A stretch of 64,000 bases of DNA from positions 226 to 64,225 of the forward strand of contig CAJWLF010000014.1 in assembly GCA_913043205.1 (NCBI GenBank), read 5' to 3'. A program made the position numbers and the translations under genes. Source of the DNA: an uncultured Chloroflexota bacterium. GTDB lineage: Bacteria; Chloroflexota; UBA11872; VXNJ01. The notes beneath the pieces were generated by a model, which was not told the origin of the DNA, did no database searches, and saw nothing but the letters and a program-made list of their open reading frames with translations. Numbering within the stretch: the stretch's first letter is position 1; every line of letters starts with the position of its first letter. Positions 6,045 through 17,635 of this stretch are shown here, in pieces.

Positions 6045-6186
6045 AACGAGTTATTTACCTGTTTTCAGGCGTGATGCAGAGACTAATAATCAGGTCTGTT
6101 TTGCGATTTTGAACCTGTGGCGGAGACGCATGCGAGTAGAACGCACCTGCCCTCTTCATAAGACGGCACATCGGATTTGAAGTCCG
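6045..6186. repeat. Left island boundary direct repeat (attR-like). It contains a displaced 3' fragment of tRNA-Sec plus 72 bp of flank.
   Basis: 142 bp nearly identical to 17494..17635, with one visible mismatch in the T-loop (gagtAgaac vs gagtCgaac). 6118..6186 corresponds to the tRNA CCA end through the anticodon stem on the minus strand. Confidence 0.85.
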
Positions 6187-6415
6187 TTCAAAGGGGCTTT
6201 TTACTGCACCGTGCTGCACTGTAAAGGCCCTCTTCCCCTGTAGCTCTACCCCTTAGGATCAGTAGTGCACTGTCGTTGCACCCGACTGCACTGCTCAAAG
6301 TTGGGGCAAAAGTTGGGGCAAAGCCCTAGGTCTATAGAAATTCGGGTAAAGGGTTTAACCAGATCGCCGCTCGGGCTATATATCTAGCTTAGGTGTCGAG
6401 AAAGCAAAACCAAAA

Positions 6416-6470
6416 ACAGGGCACCCCCCAAAAACAAAATTAGGTCTAAAATAGCTTTACAGATGTCCAG
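6416..6470 (+). promoter_or_regulatory. Copy a of the recurring island intergenic module (variant lacking the GCGATGCGTGGAG head)
   Basis: cagggcaccccccaaaaacaaaattaggtctaaaatagctttacagatgtc, immediately upstream of the 6487 gene. It matches copies at 8346, 10649 and 11601. Confidence 0.5.
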
Positions 6471-6486
6471 CAGGGATGGCAGATAG

Positions 6487-7449
6487 ATGACGTTATATAA
6501 AGTTTCAAAACAAGGTCTTTCCGAAGTCAATAGGGATAGGTTTGCTACTGAGCTTGAGATACAACAGCTGGTAGAAACCAACGTCGATTCCATATTTAAC
6601 CTAGAGTTGATCTCTAGCGAATTTATGATCGGTGACTTTCGCTTGGACTCCCTCTGTTGGGATGAAGAAGCAAAAGCCTTTGTGGTTATCGAGTACAAGC
6701 GTGGTAGTAGCTACTCTGTGATTGACCAAGGTTATTCATATTTATCGACCATGCTGAATAACAAAGCGGAGTTTATTCTTGAGTACAACGAGAAAATGGA
6801 CACTTCGCTAAAACGCAACCAAGTTGATTGGACTCAATCAAGAGTCATATTTGTAGCTCCAACATTTAATTCCTATCAGAAGAACAGCGTTAACTTTAAG
6901 GACGTGCCTTTTGAGCTTTGGGAGATTAAGAGGTTTGACGGAGACCTTGTCTCACTTGAGCAGCATGTTTCCAGTTCCAGTGAAAGTATTGCCGCAGTAG
7001 AGCGTGGTAGCACGGCTGTCTCTAAAGTCAGCGCAGAGGTAAAACAATACGATGAAAGCTATCACTTGGAAAAGACTAGCGACCAAATTAAGCAGCTGTG
7101 GAGTGAGCTATGTTTACGCCTAAATGAACTCGAAGGTACAACCCTGTCATTTAGAAAGCGAGCGATCAGTCTAAAGACAGAGAACAACACTGTGGTTGTG
7201 AGTTTCAATCTTAGGAAGTCCTATATCAGGACTAGTATCCATAGAGGAAGTATTTATCCTGACGGTACTAAAACAGGGCAGTACGGTTGGTTCACCTTGG
7301 ATGATCCTAAGGGTGTGTGCCACGAAACTAAAAAATGGTACATGAACTCGCATGACATCGTTTATTACCGCTTTGAGATAAAGACTGTAGAAGAGATCGA
7401 TTACACAATGCTGTTGATAAACCAAAAACACCGATCTGTTTTGAGTTAA
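6487..7449 (+). CDS. PD-(D/E)xK nuclease-fold protein (NucS/DUF91-like N-terminal nuclease motif) with an uncharacterised C-terminal domain. It is a candidate defence gene.
   Basis: GDFRLDSLCWDEEAKAFVVIEYKRG...VIDQGYSYL matches the D..(D/E)xK / EhK-RG motif of NucS-like RecB-family nucleases. Located inside the island and A+T-rich. Confidence 0.55.
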   Translation: MTLYKVSKQGLSEVNRDRFATELEIQQLVETNVDSIFNLELISSEFMIGDFRLDSLCWDEEAKAFVVIEYKRGSSYSVIDQGYSYLSTMLNNKAEFILEYNEKMDTSLKRNQVDWTQSRVIFVAPTFNSYQKNSVNFKDVPFELWEIKRFDGDLVSLEQHVSSSSESIAAVERGSTAVSKVSAEVKQYDESYHLEKTSDQIKQLWSELCLRLNELEGTTLSFRKRAISLKTENNTVVVSFNLRKSYIRTSIHRGSIYPDGTKTGQYGWFTLDDPKGVCHETKKWYMNSHDIVYYRFEIKTVEEIDYTMLLINQKHRSVLS

Positions 7450-7470
7450 GAATTACCTTGAGCAGGGGCA

Positions 7471-15369: not shown

Positions 15370-16483
15370 GAAAAATTATCGTACCCGTGGAATGGGGCAC
15401 ATCAAATATCGACGAGACCGAAAAGCTTGGGTTGGTCGTATAACGATAGGGTGGACATCCGACGGCAAACGAAAATCAAAGGAGCTGTGGGGAAGCACGA
15501 AACTGGCGGTAGAGGAAAAAATAAAATCATACGATGCTGAGAGTGCAAGACTATTGAGTCCCAACAGCAAGGATCAGGGATTCGGGGCGTATCTGGATTG
15601 GTGGCTCGAGAACATAGTCGACCCGTATCTAGCACCTAAAACAAGAGTCGATTATCGAAGTAAGGTTGATAACTGGATAAAGCCGATCTTAGGCCATCTG
15701 AAGCTACGAGACATTCGAAAACAGCATGTTCAAGAGCTTGTTACCTTGATCACTAAAAAGCAAAGCCCACAGCGAGCACGAAGCGTTTATACAGTAATGC
15801 GAATCTGTATCAACCATGCAGACAGCGAGGGCATGTTACTAAAAAACCCCACAAAGAAAATCAAGCTCCCTAAAGTCCCTAAAGCAAAGTCCGATTACTA
15901 CGACCAAGCGGAAACCAAGCAACTTATAAGGGCAGCAACTCATGACCATCGCTTTGGGGCTGCATACCTAATTGGGGCAATGGTTGGATTGCGTCTGGGA
16001 GAGGTGCTGGGGTTACAGTGGAAACATATTGACCTCGAAGCAATGACTATTCGCGTTGAGCAACAATTGCAGTACGTGGAAGGTCAGTTCACTTACAAAC
16101 AGCCAAAGAACAACGCCGTTCGAACGGTCAGCTTCCCACCACAGGTATTAACTTCCCTAAAGCAACTCAGGAAACACACTCGTGTTATCGGTCAAGACCA
16201 GCTACTTTTTACTTACGAAAAAGGAACCCGTATGGATCCCTCGCAATTCACTCAGAAGCATTGGTACCCATTTATAAAGCACGCAGGATTACGGAAGATC
16301 AGATTTCACGACCTACGGCACACTTGCGCAAGTCTATTAATCGGCAACGGGGAAAATCTCAGCGATGTATCGAAGCACCTCGGCCACACGGACATTCGAA
16401 TAACAACCAACACTTACGCACACATGCTGCCAGATAAAGAGGCTGGCATGGCGGAGCGTCTAGGTAAGATGCTTGCCACTTAA
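15353..16483 (+). CDS. Tyrosine-type site-specific integrase (phage integrase family)
   Basis: C-terminal catalytic motifs FHDLRHTCASLLIGNG ... LGHTDIRITTNTYAHM (R..HxxR...Y). The N-terminus RRDRKAWVGRITIG is typical of P4-like integrases. Alternative starts are GTG 15353 or ATG 15392. Confidence 0.9.
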   Translation: MVLVAKKNYRTRGMGHIKYRRDRKAWVGRITIGWTSDGKRKSKELWGSTKLAVEEKIKSYDAESARLLSPNSKDQGFGAYLDWWLENIVDPYLAPKTRVDYRSKVDNWIKPILGHLKLRDIRKQHVQELVTLITKKQSPQRARSVYTVMRICINHADSEGMLLKNPTKKIKLPKVPKAKSDYYDQAETKQLIRAATHDHRFGAAYLIGAMVGLRLGEVLGLQWKHIDLEAMTIRVEQQLQYVEGQFTYKQPKNNAVRTVSFPPQVLTSLKQLRKHTRVIGQDQLLFTYEKGTRMDPSQFTQKHWYPFIKHAGLRKIRFHDLRHTCASLLIGNGENLSDVSKHLGHTDIRITTNTYAHMLPDKEAGMAERLGKMLAT

Positions 16484-16491
16484 CCTCATGC

Positions 16492-16800
16492 TCAGCTTTT
16501 TACGCTAGCTAAATGAAGCTCTTTTATGCGCTCTTGGATTTTGTTTACCAGTTGCTGGGTTAAGTGTGGGTGAGCTGGCTCAAAGTATTTGGTCAGCATC
16601 ATTGTTAGACTCATCAGGAAAGATACATCGGTCTCCTTGCTGATATGGTGACAATGCCCTCTATAGGTTTGTATTAGCCATTCAGAGCTGCCTTCATCCT
16701 CAGGGCTAGGTGTGAAATCCAACTCTTCCCGCTTAAATTGGTCGTCCCGCATTTCTTTCAGTACATCGCCAATGAATACTTCTTCTGTATCATTTTTCAT
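16492..16800 (-). CDS. Hypothetical protein (island)
   Basis: 102 aa ORF coupled to the upstream ssb (4 nt overlap). No recognisable domain. Confidence 0.35.
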   Translation of the reverse strand: MKNDTEEVFIGDVLKEMRDDQFKREELDFTPSPEDEGSSEWLIQTYRGHCHHISKETDVSFLMSLTMMLTKYFEPAHPHLTQQLVNKIQERIKELHLASVKS

Positions 16801-17279
16801 TTGTGGAAATCCTCCAACAGCTCATGGGAGTCGTCATCAGGTGACCAGCCCTTACCGCTTAAGCCCTTCATAGCTCGCCGACTCATGGCTCCCTGGTATG
16901 GAGTTTCTTTGGGGGCATCATCAAACGGTAGGTCGGCAGCAGATTCATCAAATTTGCGATCCACTCGCCGAAAGTCACGAACGCTAATCTCTAACTCAGA
17001 ACGTTCACGCCCATCTTTAGCATTCCAATAATTACTTCTGAGGGATCCGTTAACCAGTACGGTTGAGCCCTTCTTAACCATGCCCTCAGCTAGACGACTC
17101 AGACCCCCATAACAAATACATTGGAACCATGTAGGGCGGTTCTTTGGATCGTCTTCTGTGAAGCCGCCAGTACCAACTGCCAAACTAAATTTCGTCCAAT
17201 CGACACCAGCTTGCGTCTTGCCAGTTGTGAGATCGTTGCCGCAATGTCCCATGACAGTCACGGTTGCTAGACCCATCAT
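16797..17279 (-). CDS. ssb: Single-stranded DNA-binding protein (SSB, OB-fold) with an acidic C-terminal tail
   Basis: VTVMGHCGNDL...WFQCICYGGLSRLAEG..KKGSTVLVNGSLRSNYW..DGRERSELEISV matches the SSB OB-fold pattern. The acidic C-terminus is DDDSHELLEDF. Confidence 0.7.
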   Translation of the reverse strand: MMGLATVTVMGHCGNDLTTGKTQAGVDWTKFSLAVGTGGFTEDDPKNRPTWFQCICYGGLSRLAEGMVKKGSTVLVNGSLRSNYWNAKDGRERSELEISVRDFRRVDRKFDESAADLPFDDAPKETPYQGAMSRRAMKGLSGKGWSPDDDSHELLEDFHK

Positions 17280-17493
17280 GCGTCACCTCTATATTCATTG
17301 ATGTATCTTTTATCAATACAGGTCTCATTAATTCCTCTATCAATTAATATAGGAATATATCGATCCCATCCACACGAGTTTTGTGTCGTTATTAGAGCGT
17401 ATATAACATTGAGATCTCTCTCTCGTGAGGTCTGAAAATATTGGGAGTAAATACCTAAATCAGAAGTCGAAGTTGGGGCATAAGTTGGGGCAG

Positions 17494-17635
17494 ACGAGTT
17501 ATTTACCTGTTTTCAGGCGTGATGCAGAGACTAATAATCAGGTCTGTTTTGCGATTTTGAACCTGTGGCGGAGACGCATGCGAGTCGAACGCACCTGCCC
17601 TCTTCATAAGACGGCACATCGGATTTGAAGTCCGT
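17494..17635. repeat. Right island boundary direct repeat (attL-like). It is the island-derived 3' part of the reconstituted tRNA-Sec plus 72 bp.
   Basis: Identical, apart from one mismatch, to 6045..6186. Sequences diverge immediately after gaagtccg on both sides. Confidence 0.85.

What the first reader, a model, noticed from the sequence alone, without database searches (positions are those of the whole stretch)
6045..17635. About 11.5 kb integrative island inserted into the selenocysteine tRNA gene (selC), with a 142 bp direct repeat
Two 142 bp segments (6045..6186 and 17494..17635) are identical except for one base. Each contains the 3' end of a tRNA (CCA end through anticodon stem) plus 72 bp of flank. 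A complete tRNA-Sec sits only at the right copy, adjacent to a tyrosine integrase gene (15353..16483). The element also carries an XRE repressor, an excisionase-like HTH, a split primase and an SSB, which together form a mobile-element backbone. Cargo genes are noticeably more A+T-rich than the flanking core genes. selC is a classical island hotspot in enterobacteria, and here the same target is used in an apparently unrelated genome. The 72 bp of identity beyond the tRNA 3' end is longer than a typical att core.
Basis: partly seen in the sequence, partly recalled or inferred. Interest (0 to 1): 0.75.

Follow-up and report, generated by a model that had tools for sequence, protein, structure and literature searches.

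The report
Integrative defence island in tRNA-Sec gene
An 11.4 kb mobile-element-type island carrying anti-phage genes sits in the selenocysteine tRNA gene of an uncultured marine Chloroflexota bacterium, and a related genome has the same site without it. It is a well-made but ordinary example of a common kind of genomic island.

Summary
A 142-nt direct repeat (6046-6187 and 17494-17635, one mismatch) brackets 11.3 kb. Each copy is the last 70 nt of tRNA-Sec plus 72 nt of downstream flank. The only intact tRNA-Sec is at 17566-17662 (-).

A related metagenomic contig (L058, about 85% nucleotide identity) joins the left flank, a single copy of the 142-nt block and the tRNA 5' part directly, so it lacks the island exactly at the repeat borders.

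The island encodes:
- a catalytically complete tyrosine integrase;
- an XRE / HTH_17 / two-ORF primase (Toprim-DUF3631) operon and an SSB;
- cargo including two defence genes (PDC-S18 and a PvuRts1I-like modified-DNA restriction enzyme).

No capsid, packaging or conjugation genes were detected. Four perfect AAGTTGGGGCA copies lie roughly symmetrically around the anticodon loop in the inferred attP. They look like arm-type integrase sites and suggest crossover in the anticodon loop.

- The island is not A+T-rich overall. It is foreign by tetranucleotide usage.
- Use of tRNA-Sec outside enterics is already known.
- The "split" primase is a conserved arrangement.

No excised form or same-species empty site was found.

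Verdict: new member of a known kind, with modest interest.

The parts
6046..6187 (.). attR-type repeat. It comprises 72 nt of native flank downstream of the tRNA (6046-6117) plus the displaced 3' fragment of tRNA-Sec (6118-6187, read on the - strand). It carries the derived A at 6138.
17494..17635 (.). attL-type repeat, the identity block. It comprises a 72-nt flank copy (17494-17565) plus nt 28-97 of the functional tRNA-Sec.
17566..17662 (-). Intact tRNA-Sec gene (anticodon TCA at 17626-17628, CCA encoded). The 5' 27 nt (17636-17662) lie outside the repeat.
6298..6320 (+). Tandem pair of AAGTTGGGGCA (12-nt period), 110 nt inside the left repeat. Putative arm-type integrase binding sites.
   Evidence: (4 perfect copies in 64 kb, all here and at 17470-17492; 0 of 100 shuffles reach the count)
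17470..17492 (+). Tandem pair of AAGTTGGGGCA abutting the right repeat. Putative arm-type integrase binding sites.
6487..7449 (+). Cargo: candidate anti-phage defence protein PDC-S18 (320 aa).
   Evidence: PADLOC PDLC04945, E = 2e-96; no Pfam or PHROG family
7471..8346 (+). Cargo: PvuRts1I-like restriction endonuclease dependent on modified DNA (N-terminal nuclease domain plus SRA domain).
   Evidence: PF21598, PF18491; mREase_II, E = 1.7e-90
8438..9100 (+). Cargo: double zinc-ribbon protein with hydrophobic N- and C-terminal segments.
   Evidence: PF12773 DZR
9120..10637 (+). Cargo: trypsin/HtrA-like serine protease with a lipoprotein-type signal and Pro/Thr-rich repeat linkers.
10744..11571 (+). 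Cargo: PhyH-family Fe(II)/2-oxoglutarate dioxygenase. The ORF opens at 10618, but the likely start is 10744, downstream of the repeated intergenic module.
11741..13501 (-). Replication module: Toprim primase domain plus P-loop region plus DUF3631 (586 aa).
13491..13784 (-). Replication module: separate CHC2 zinc-finger (DnaG-type) ORF overlapping the primase ORF. The same two-ORF layout is found in a distant relative (L143).
13781..14032 (-). HTH_17 (excisionase/AlpA-type) DNA-binding protein.
14001..14264 (-). XRE-family HTH regulator, first gene of the leftward operon. It is transcribed divergently from the 338-aa/int operon.
14353..15369 (+). 338-aa protein of unknown function with a C-terminal Cys4 zinc-finger-like motif. 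It overlaps the integrase start by 17 nt. It is a paralogue of the chromosomal gene 3773-4852.
15353..16483 (+). Tyrosine integrase (SAM_3 plus catalytic domain; R214, H319, R322, H345, Y355).
16492..16800 (-). 102-aa protein, no family found.
16797..17279 (-). Single-strand DNA-binding protein.

Best explanation
This is an 11,448-bp site-specific integrative element (one repeat copy plus 11,306 bp unique) inserted in the tRNA-Sec gene of an uncultured marine Chloroflexota bacterium.

Proposed mechanism:
- The element's tyrosine integrase recombined a circular attP with the chromosomal tRNA-Sec gene. The attP carries nt 28-97 of tRNA-Sec plus 72 nt of downstream sequence.
- Crossover was most probably in the anticodon loop.
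- The element-borne 3' half now completes the functional tRNA at 17566-17662. The original 3' half is displaced 11.4 kb away at 6118-6187, where it has picked up a T-loop mutation.
- Two tandem pairs of AAGTTGGGGCA, at about -135 and +119 nt from the anticodon in attP, are the likely arm-type sites for the integrase N-terminal domain.

The backbone has three parts: a divergent XRE switch; an HTH_17 excisionase-type protein; and a replication module (CHC2 zinc-finger ORF, Toprim/DUF3631 primase, SSB). This implies excision followed by autonomous replication. There are no capsid, packaging or conjugation genes, so transfer must rely on something else, such as a helper phage or vesicles. That is the architecture of cargo-carrying tycheposon-like or PICI-like islands.

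The cargo is mainly defensive or envelope-related: PDC-S18, a PvuRts1I-like enzyme, a secreted protease and a dioxygenase.

Shown: the repeat, the tRNA, the empty site in a relative, the gene families and the foreign composition. Inferred: integrase-mediated integration, the crossover position, the role of the arm sites, replication after excision, and the transfer route.
For: - Repeat and tRNA anatomy.
- Precise absence in L058, where the left flank is contiguous with a single att copy and the tRNA 5' part. L058 has no second tRNA fragment and no arm repeats.
- Integrase is intact and its catalytic residues align with XerA (5hxy).
- The identity block begins at the 5' edge of the anticodon stem (nt 28; stem pairs start at nt 29). 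Islander reports anticodon-centred attP as the commonest class (2083 of 3919 islands; PMC4383910).
- AAGTTGGGGCA has 4 perfect copies, only at the island ends and on the same strand. With one mismatch allowed there are 7 matches against 1.08 expected, and 0 of 100 shuffles reach 7. Their geometry is near-symmetric around the anticodon loop.
- The left-copy mismatch is derived. L058 and the functional tRNA both have C at that position, and the change hits the conserved purine of the T-loop.
- Tetranucleotide distance is 0.166 against 0.077 +/- 0.004 for flank windows.
- Backbone and cargo families.
- Distant primase relatives sit in islands next to tRNA-Ala and tRNA-Arg with integrases, one of them with the same two-ORF primase layout.
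- No structural phage or conjugation families were found in any island ORF.
Against: - No sign of present-day mobility. All same-species contigs spanning a junction carry the island.
- No empty-site junction was found in JGI metagenomes. No attP junction, att sequence, arm repeat or integrase relative was found in IMG/VR.
- The integrase, primase and 338-aa protein have no relative above about 35% identity among 5.8 billion proteins. There is therefore no second member to show movement between genomes.
- Integrase relatives at about 33% identity are not next to tRNA genes in the flanks fetched.
- The island-borne and chromosome-borne repeat copies share all 8 substitutions, the 2-nt indel and the 2 tRNA variants that distinguish this host from L058. 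Hence attP is matched to this host lineage, which also fits long residence, gene conversion or RecA-mediated events.
- The crossover position and arm-site function rest on geometry only.
Confidence: 0.8

Rival explanations
1. The element is a phage satellite (PICI / P4 / VEIME-like). It stays integrated under XRE control, senses a helper phage, excises, replicates with its own primase and is packaged in the helper's capsids. Its defence genes interfere with phages.
For: - Size of 11.4 kb with int, XRE, HTH_17 (AlpA/Xis-type), a primase module and SSB, and no structural genes.
- Anti-phage cargo.
- Marine VEIMEs share integrase, AlpA, primase/helicase and, in one module, periplasmic serine proteases (PMC9618062).
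Against: - No terS, capsid-remodelling or packaging-interference gene was detected by Pfam, PHROGs or NCBIfam.
- The element, its att block and its arm repeats are absent from 2.9 million IMG/VR contigs.
- Three island ORFs remain unannotated, so hijacking functions cannot be excluded.
Confidence: 0.2
2. The element is a fixed, no longer mobile resident. It integrated in an ancestor of this species and is now inherited vertically. The repeat is kept near-identical by gene conversion, and L058's lineage either never had it or lost it.
For: - Present in every junction-spanning contig from at least 6 assemblies at 99.9-100% identity.
- No empty site, circular junction or second host was found.
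- One mutation has accumulated in the displaced fragment.
- The repeat copies share all host-specific variants.
Against: - All backbone ORFs are intact, with overlapping, operon-like starts.
- The integrase catalytic residues are complete.
- Both arm-site pairs are perfect.
- Composition is still strongly foreign, which argues against very long amelioration.
- Short-read assemblies collapse minority empty-site variants, so fixation is not proven.
Confidence: 0.3
3. Integration was by homologous (RecA-type) single crossover between the chromosome and a circular DNA carrying a 142-nt chromosomal segment, not by the integrase. The integrase is incidental.
For: - A 142-nt perfect identity is enough for RecA.
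- It includes 72 nt of non-tRNA flank carrying this host's own variants.
- A Campbell-type single crossover gives the same direct-repeat product.
Against: - The identity block starts at the 5' edge of the anticodon stem and restores the tRNA, which is the signature of tRNA-targeting tyrosine integrases.
- Perfect repeated motifs flank the block symmetrically, as arm sites do.
- An intact integrase and an excisionase-type gene are present.
Confidence: 0.07

Closest known systems
tDNA-integrated genomic islands as catalogued by Islander (anticodon-centred attP class; Williams 2002 sublocation scheme, cited from PMC4383910)
   Same: An intact tRNA gene regenerated by the island, a displaced 3' fragment in direct orientation marking the far end, and a tyrosine integrase inside. 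The identity block starts at the anticodon stem and runs through the tRNA 3' end.
   Different: The identity block continues 72 nt past the CCA end, for 142 nt in total. The host is a marine Chloroflexota bacterium. The integrase has no relative above 34% identity in the databases searched.
Tycheposons, cargo-carrying type (Prochlorococcus and other marine bacteria; bioRxiv 10.1101/2020.12.28.424599)
   Same: A 10-20 kb element at a tRNA gene, with a tyrosine recombinase, a small replication module (primase/helicase) and several kb of cargo, and no capsid or conjugation genes. It occurs in an oligotrophic marine bacterium, and there are remnants next to the tRNA in a relative.
   Different: The target is tRNA-Sec, which is not one of the seven Prochlorococcus targets. 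Membership of the tycheposon integrase clade and sharing of its hallmark gene profiles were not tested. The cargo here is defence- and envelope-related rather than nutrient acquisition.
Phage-inducible chromosomal islands and marine VEIMEs (PMC9618062)
   Same: A backbone of integrase, repressor-type HTH, AlpA/Xis-type HTH and primase, of similar size, with anti-phage content.
   Different: No terS, capsid or packaging-redirection genes were detected, and the element was not found in viral-contig collections.
selC-associated islands and phages of Enterobacteriaceae (LEE, PAI-I536, SHI-2, phiR73; from general knowledge) and tRNA-Sec-integrating Pf prophages of P. aeruginosa (PMC7549136)
   Same: The same target gene, with integration at the 3' part so that the tRNA is preserved.
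   Different: The integrase type differs. Here it is SAM_3 plus catalytic domain, with no P4-type Arm-DNA-bind_3/DUF4102 domain. The Pf att is only 27 bp at the T-arm/acceptor end, whereas here the block is 142 nt starting at the anticodon stem. There is no sequence relationship.
Actinomycete integrative elements with long tRNA att identities (e.g. SLP1, pSAM2; recalled from memory, not checked here)
   Same: Small int-xis-rep elements in tRNA genes with att identity blocks of 50-110 bp. The weak nearest named integrase hits are from Streptomyces.
   Different: No FtsK/SpoIIIE-type Tra protein or other conjugation gene was found.

Membership tests
tDNA-integrated genomic island (Islander criteria) | Intact tRNA gene plus a displaced fragment of the same tRNA in direct orientation delimiting the island | tested here: met
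   tRNA-Sec at 17566-17662 and its 3' 70 nt repeated at 6118-6187
tDNA-integrated genomic island (Islander criteria) | Integrase gene (not Xer, not integron type) inside the delimited segment | tested here: met
   PF00589 and PF14659, phrog_1 integrase E = 2.4e-72. All NCBIfam Xer and integron models score far below their cut-offs.
tDNA-integrated genomic island (Islander criteria) | Segment absent from a related genome, with the junction exactly at the repeat | tested here: met
   L058
Active integrative element | Excised circular form (attP) and/or empty attB within the same population | tested here: not met
   searches found none. Assemblies, not reads, were searched, so this is weak negative evidence.
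Tyrosine recombinase | Catalytic R...H-x-x-R...H/W...Y residues | tested here: met
   R214, H319, R322, H345 and Y355 aligned to XerA 5hxy
P4-type integrases of enterobacterial selC islands | N-terminal Arm-DNA-bind_3 / DUF4102 domain and sequence relatedness to P4 Int | tested here: not met
   one search finds only PF14659, PF22022 and PF00589. A P4-type domain is seen in L143's integrase but not here.
PICI / phage satellite | Packaging or capsid-hijacking genes (terS, capsid morphogenesis, ppi-like) | tested here: not met
   no such Pfam, PHROG or NCBIfam hit in any island ORF. Three ORFs remain unannotated.
PICI / phage satellite | Induction and packaging by a helper phage | not testable with these tools
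   absent from IMG/VR, which is only indirect evidence
Tycheposon | tRNA-targeting tyrosine recombinase plus replication module plus cargo, without capsid or conjugation genes | tested here: met
Tycheposon | Integrase within the monophyletic tycheposon clade and sharing its hallmark gene profiles | not tested
   no reference sequences or profiles were available in the tools
ICE / AICE | Type IV secretion genes or an FtsK/SpoIIIE-type Tra protein | tested here: not met
Temperate prophage | Capsid, terminase, portal and tail genes | tested here: not met

The most novel reading that the evidence does not exclude
The island is the first sampled member of an otherwise unseen family of replicative integrative elements of marine Chloroflexota.
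- Its integrase, primase and integrase-coupled 338-aa protein have no relative above about 35% identity in 5.8 billion proteins.
- The 338-aa protein may be a host-derived paralogue co-opted as a new recombination or regulatory accessory factor. Only three full-length clusters of this family exist among 1.84 billion representatives, and the other two are chromosomal.
- The 72-nt extension of the att block, together with the island-like relic beside tRNA-Sec in L058, may record repeated occupancy of this site. On this reading, the chromosomal 'flank' is itself a fossil element arm.
Probability: 0.2. Interest if true: 0.5.

Novelty: new member of a known kind. Interest (0 to 1): 0.3.

Why it matters
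It gives a precisely delimited, compositionally foreign mobile-element island in an uncultured marine Chloroflexota lineage, a group for which few such elements have been described. Its boundaries are verified against an unoccupied relative, and its anti-phage cargo is plausible.

It adds a data point to two ideas. One is that small integrase-plus-primase elements at tRNA genes shape flexible genomes of oligotrophic marine bacteria. The other is that tRNA-Sec is a recurrent, convergently chosen target.

The att site (a 142-nt block plus perfect arm repeats) and an orphan integrase would be a clean substrate for biochemical mapping. None of this changes current understanding of how such islands work.

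Tried and rejected
- GTDB species representatives. The nearest PanB matches are only 76-78% identical (L001, L002). They show no synteny with the right flank and have no tRNA-Sec near panB, so they are uninformative for an empty site.
- Exact-protein look-ups for PanB (281-aa ORF version not on record; 277-aa version), the lipoprotein and the DehI-like gene. 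These returned only island-bearing contigs or contigs that stop inside the repeat. The repeat is longer than the assemblers' k-mers, so I do not read these breaks as polymorphism.
- Gap-pattern scan for the same-species empty junction in JGI metagenomes: 0 hits.
- IMG/VR scans for the attP junction, the integrase, the tRNA 3' part, the arm repeat and the 72-nt flank: 0 relevant hits. The primase scan returned only Toprim-domain matches at 26-37% identity.
- Contexts of four integrase relatives at about 33% identity. No tRNA was found in the fetched flanks, so they say nothing about target specificity of the subfamily.
- 338-aa protein. The word-indexed search found only itself. The exhaustive profile search found three full-length clusters plus about 100 matches to the C-terminal region only, and the nine hits scanned had no Pfam family, apart from one weak DUF6076 match. 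The C-terminus scores below threshold against zf_Tbcl and zf-CGNR. AlphaFold2 on a 2-sequence alignment gave pLDDT 31.5, which is unusable, so no fold search was run.
- Sigma-70 and terminator scans do not exceed shuffles. I note only the face-to-face promoter-like pair between XRE and the 338-aa gene.
- Tested and rejected: homology of L058's 505-aa lipoprotein to the island protease; of L140's 300-aa ORF to the 338-aa protein; and of L150's 320-aa ORF to PDC-S18.
- Williams 2002 could not be retrieved.

Full report
**1. Observation**

The repeat finder on 5000-19000 returns one long direct repeat: 6046-6187 and 17494-17635, 142 nt, 99% identical, 11,448 nt apart. The single difference is A6138 versus C17586. 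The 72-nt non-tRNA part occurs nowhere else in the 64 kb window, and no shuffle gives a match.

ARAGORN finds one tRNA-Sec at 17566-17662 on the minus strand. Rfam RF01852 scores it 70.4 bits against a gathering score of 47. It folds into a cloverleaf with a long variable arm (-46 kcal/mol, z = -3.6), while the corresponding stretch around the left copy does not (z = 0.1).

In tRNA orientation, the repeat covers nt 28-97 (anticodon stem through the encoded CCA, 70 nt) plus the next 72 nt.

**2. Gene content**

From left to right, by Pfam, PHROGs, PADLOC and NCBIfam:

| Coordinates | Strand | Product |
|---|---|---|
| 6487-7449 | + | PDC-S18 candidate defence protein (E = 2e-96) |
| 7471-8346 | + | PvuRts1I-like nuclease plus SRA domain, i.e. 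a restriction enzyme dependent on modified DNA (mREase_II, E = 1.7e-90) |
| 8438-9100 | + | Double zinc-ribbon protein |
| 9120-10637 | + | Trypsin/HtrA-like lipoprotein with Pro/Thr-rich repeats |
| about 10744-11571 | + | PhyH dioxygenase |
| 11741-13501 | - | Toprim / P-loop / DUF3631 primase-type protein |
| 13491-13784 | - | Separate CHC2 zinc-finger ORF overlapping the primase ORF |
| 13781-14032 | - | HTH_17 |
| 14001-14264 | - | XRE |
| 14353-15369 | + | 338-aa protein of unknown function |
| 15353-16483 | + | Tyrosine integrase, overlapping the 338-aa gene by 17 nt |
| 16492-16800 | - | 102-aa protein of unknown function |
| 16797-17279 | - | SSB |

The integrase aligns with XerA (5hxy) through the catalytic motifs. 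R214, H319, R322, H345 and Y355 are all present.

No capsid, terminase, tail, type IV secretion or FtsK-type protein was detected.

The 'split primase' is not a frameshift. A 28%-identical relative in a gammaproteobacterial MAG (L143) has the same layout: a separate Zn_ribbon_DnaG ORF followed by a DUF3631 ORF. It lies in an island beside tRNA-Ala with its own integrase. Another relative (L144) lies beside tRNA-Arg.

**3. Is it an insertion?**

The host is an uncultured marine Chloroflexota bacterium. The window is 100% identical to a Tara Oceans scaffold (L040/L048). The nearest GTDB species representatives are Chloroflexota MAGs with PanB only 76-78% identical and no synteny on the tRNA side.

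A 26-nt tRNA-Sec pattern found a second genotype in JGI metagenomes, L058 (Ga0310344_10001640). L058 matches the window as follows:
- 94% over panB;
- 80% over the gene left of panB;
- 85% over 6.9 kb to the right of the tRNA.

In L058, the homologue of window 5970-6045 runs straight into a single copy of the 142-nt block, then the tRNA-Sec 5' part, then the lipoprotein gene. L058 has no second tRNA fragment and no AAGTTGGGGCA repeats in the 12.7 kb held. The 11.3 kb is therefore missing exactly at the repeat borders.

Composition agrees in one respect and not in another. The tetranucleotide L1 distance of the island to the rest of the window is 0.166, against 0.077 +/- 0.004 (maximum 0.085) for same-size flank windows. 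But island GC is 46.3% against 45.2%, so the island is not A+T-rich. Only the two defence genes (41%) are.

**4. How it probably integrates**

The identity block begins at the 5' edge of the anticodon stem (nt 28) and runs through the 3' end. That is the layout of anticodon-centred attP sites, the commonest class in Islander (2083 of 3919 islands; PMC4383910).

The 11-mer AAGTTGGGGCA occurs four times perfectly in 64 kb, only at the island ends and all on the same strand. The copies form two tandem pairs with a 12-nt period, at 6298-6320 and 17470-17492. With one mismatch allowed there are 7 matches against 1.08 expected, and no shuffle reaches 7.

In the reconstructed circular attP, the pairs lie 135 nt and 119 nt on either side of the anticodon centre. 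I read them as arm-type sites for the integrase N-terminal domain, and I place the crossover in the anticodon loop. This is inference from geometry and has not been shown.

On that reading, the T-arm at 17586 is element-borne and the one at 6138 is the displaced chromosomal copy. L058 has C there, like the functional tRNA, so the A in the left copy is derived. It replaces the conserved purine of the T-loop (tRNA nt 77), as expected for a fragment released from selection.

**5. The 72-nt extension**

L058 differs from the window's block by 8 substitutions and a 2-nt indel in the 72-nt flank. It also has 2 structure-neutral changes in the variable arm: one in the loop, and one that turns a G-C pair into G-U. 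The window's two copies share the same state at every one of these positions.

The 72 nt are therefore native chromosomal sequence, since they are contiguous with the left flank in an unoccupied genome. The element-borne copy is matched to this particular host lineage. Three explanations fit: the element has lived in this lineage; the two repeats have been homogenised by gene conversion; or both.

One further observation. L058 carries an extra 1.9 kb between panB and the tRNA, holding a 505-aa lipoprotein gene and flanked by short AATGTT..TCATTTT repeats. Its tRNA-proximal end (L058 5659-5749) is similar to the island's own tRNA-proximal interior (17356-17448). The local alignment is z = 15 against shuffles, and a shared 22-mer is unique in both sequences. 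This may be a relic of a related element, which would mean the site has been used more than once. It is a single short similarity, and I treat it as a lead only.

**6. Mobility today**

I found no evidence for current mobility.
- Every same-species contig that spans a junction carries the island at 99.9-100% identity, in at least six assemblies. Shorter contigs stop inside the repeat, which is longer than the assemblers' k-mers.
- A junction-specific pattern for the empty site found nothing in JGI metagenomes.
- Patterns for the attP junction, the att block and the arm repeats found nothing in IMG/VR, and a protein scan with the integrase found no relative there.
- The integrase, the primase and the 338-aa protein have no relative above about 35% identity in 5.8 billion proteins. 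No second copy in another host is known.

A fixed resident element is a serious alternative for its present state. The intact ORFs, perfect arm repeats and still-foreign composition argue against deep decay.

**7. Comparison with known systems**

In kind, this is a tDNA-integrated genomic island. In architecture it is closest to cargo-carrying tycheposons and to PICI/VEIME-type satellites: integration module, small replication module and cargo, with no structural or conjugation genes. However, it lacks any detectable packaging gene, and membership of the tycheposon integrase clade could not be tested.

It is not related to the enterobacterial selC islands. The integrase has no P4-type arm-binding domain. 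tRNA-Sec is also already known as an attB outside enterics, for example in Pf prophages of P. aeruginosa, where a 27-bp att lies at the T-arm/acceptor end (PMC7549136). The shared target is therefore convergent and not surprising.

**8. Verdict**

Four corrections apply: base composition, adjacency of the integrase to the repeat, the meaning of the split primase, and how unusual the target is.

This is a new member of a known kind. Points of some interest are the orphan backbone, the long host-matched att block with clear arm repeats, the defence cargo, and the integrase-coupled 338-aa protein with a chromosomal paralogue.

Interest: 0.3.

Noticed in passing
window 6424-6463, 8343-8412, 10645-10715 (partial copy at 9078-9100): A repeated intergenic module of about 70 nt, GGCGATGCGTGGAGAYTGA-GGGTATACCCCCC-A-rich-TAAAATAGCTTTACAGA, containing the palindrome GGGTATACCC. 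It precedes three cargo units: PDC-S18 plus the restriction enzyme, the Zn-ribbon protein plus the protease, and PhyH. Its parts occur nowhere else in the window. It could be a shared operator/promoter or a scar of cargo-module assembly.
   Followed up: partly
window 3773-4852 (+) and 14353-15369 (+): The island's 338-aa protein has a chromosomal paralogue just left of panB (26% identity, E = 8e-25). That paralogue is conserved in L058 (421-1584). The family has only three full-length clusters among 1.84 billion representatives, and the third (P0123) lies in an ordinary chromosomal context. The C-terminus has a Cys4 motif that scores below threshold against treble-clef and CGNR zinc fingers.
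   Followed up: partly
L058 3842-5759: A 1.9 kb segment absent from the window, carrying a 505-aa lipoprotein gene with no Pfam family. It is bounded by short direct repeats AATGTT(TG)TTCATTTT. Its tRNA-proximal 90 nt resemble the island interior at 17356-17448.
   Followed up: partly
window 9273-9410 and 10089-10178: Tandem 12/24-nt repeats encoding Pro/Thr/Ser/Ala-rich linkers on both sides of the protease domain of the island's trypsin-like lipoprotein.
   Followed up: no
window 14265-14352: The 88-nt gap between XRE and the 338-aa/int operon holds the best sigma-70-like match of the island (- strand, 14324-14295, 10 of 12). A facing + strand match lies at 14271-14299. This is the layout of a divergent switch, but promoter-like sites overall do not exceed chance.
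   Followed up: no
window 11568-11744 (+): A 58-aa Cys/His-rich ORF between PhyH and the primase gene, called as a gene in several assemblies. No function was sought.
   Followed up: no
L143 5758-12094; L144 1750-5826: Distant DUF3631-primase relatives (28% identity) sit in other tRNA-integrated islands, next to tRNA-Ala with a P4-type integrase and next to tRNA-Arg. This suggests the replication module is shared among otherwise unrelated tRNA-targeting elements.
   Followed up: partly
window 43269-43477 (-): Two adjacent tRNA-Ser genes (GGA and CGA anticodons). No repeat or integrase was looked for there.
   Followed up: no
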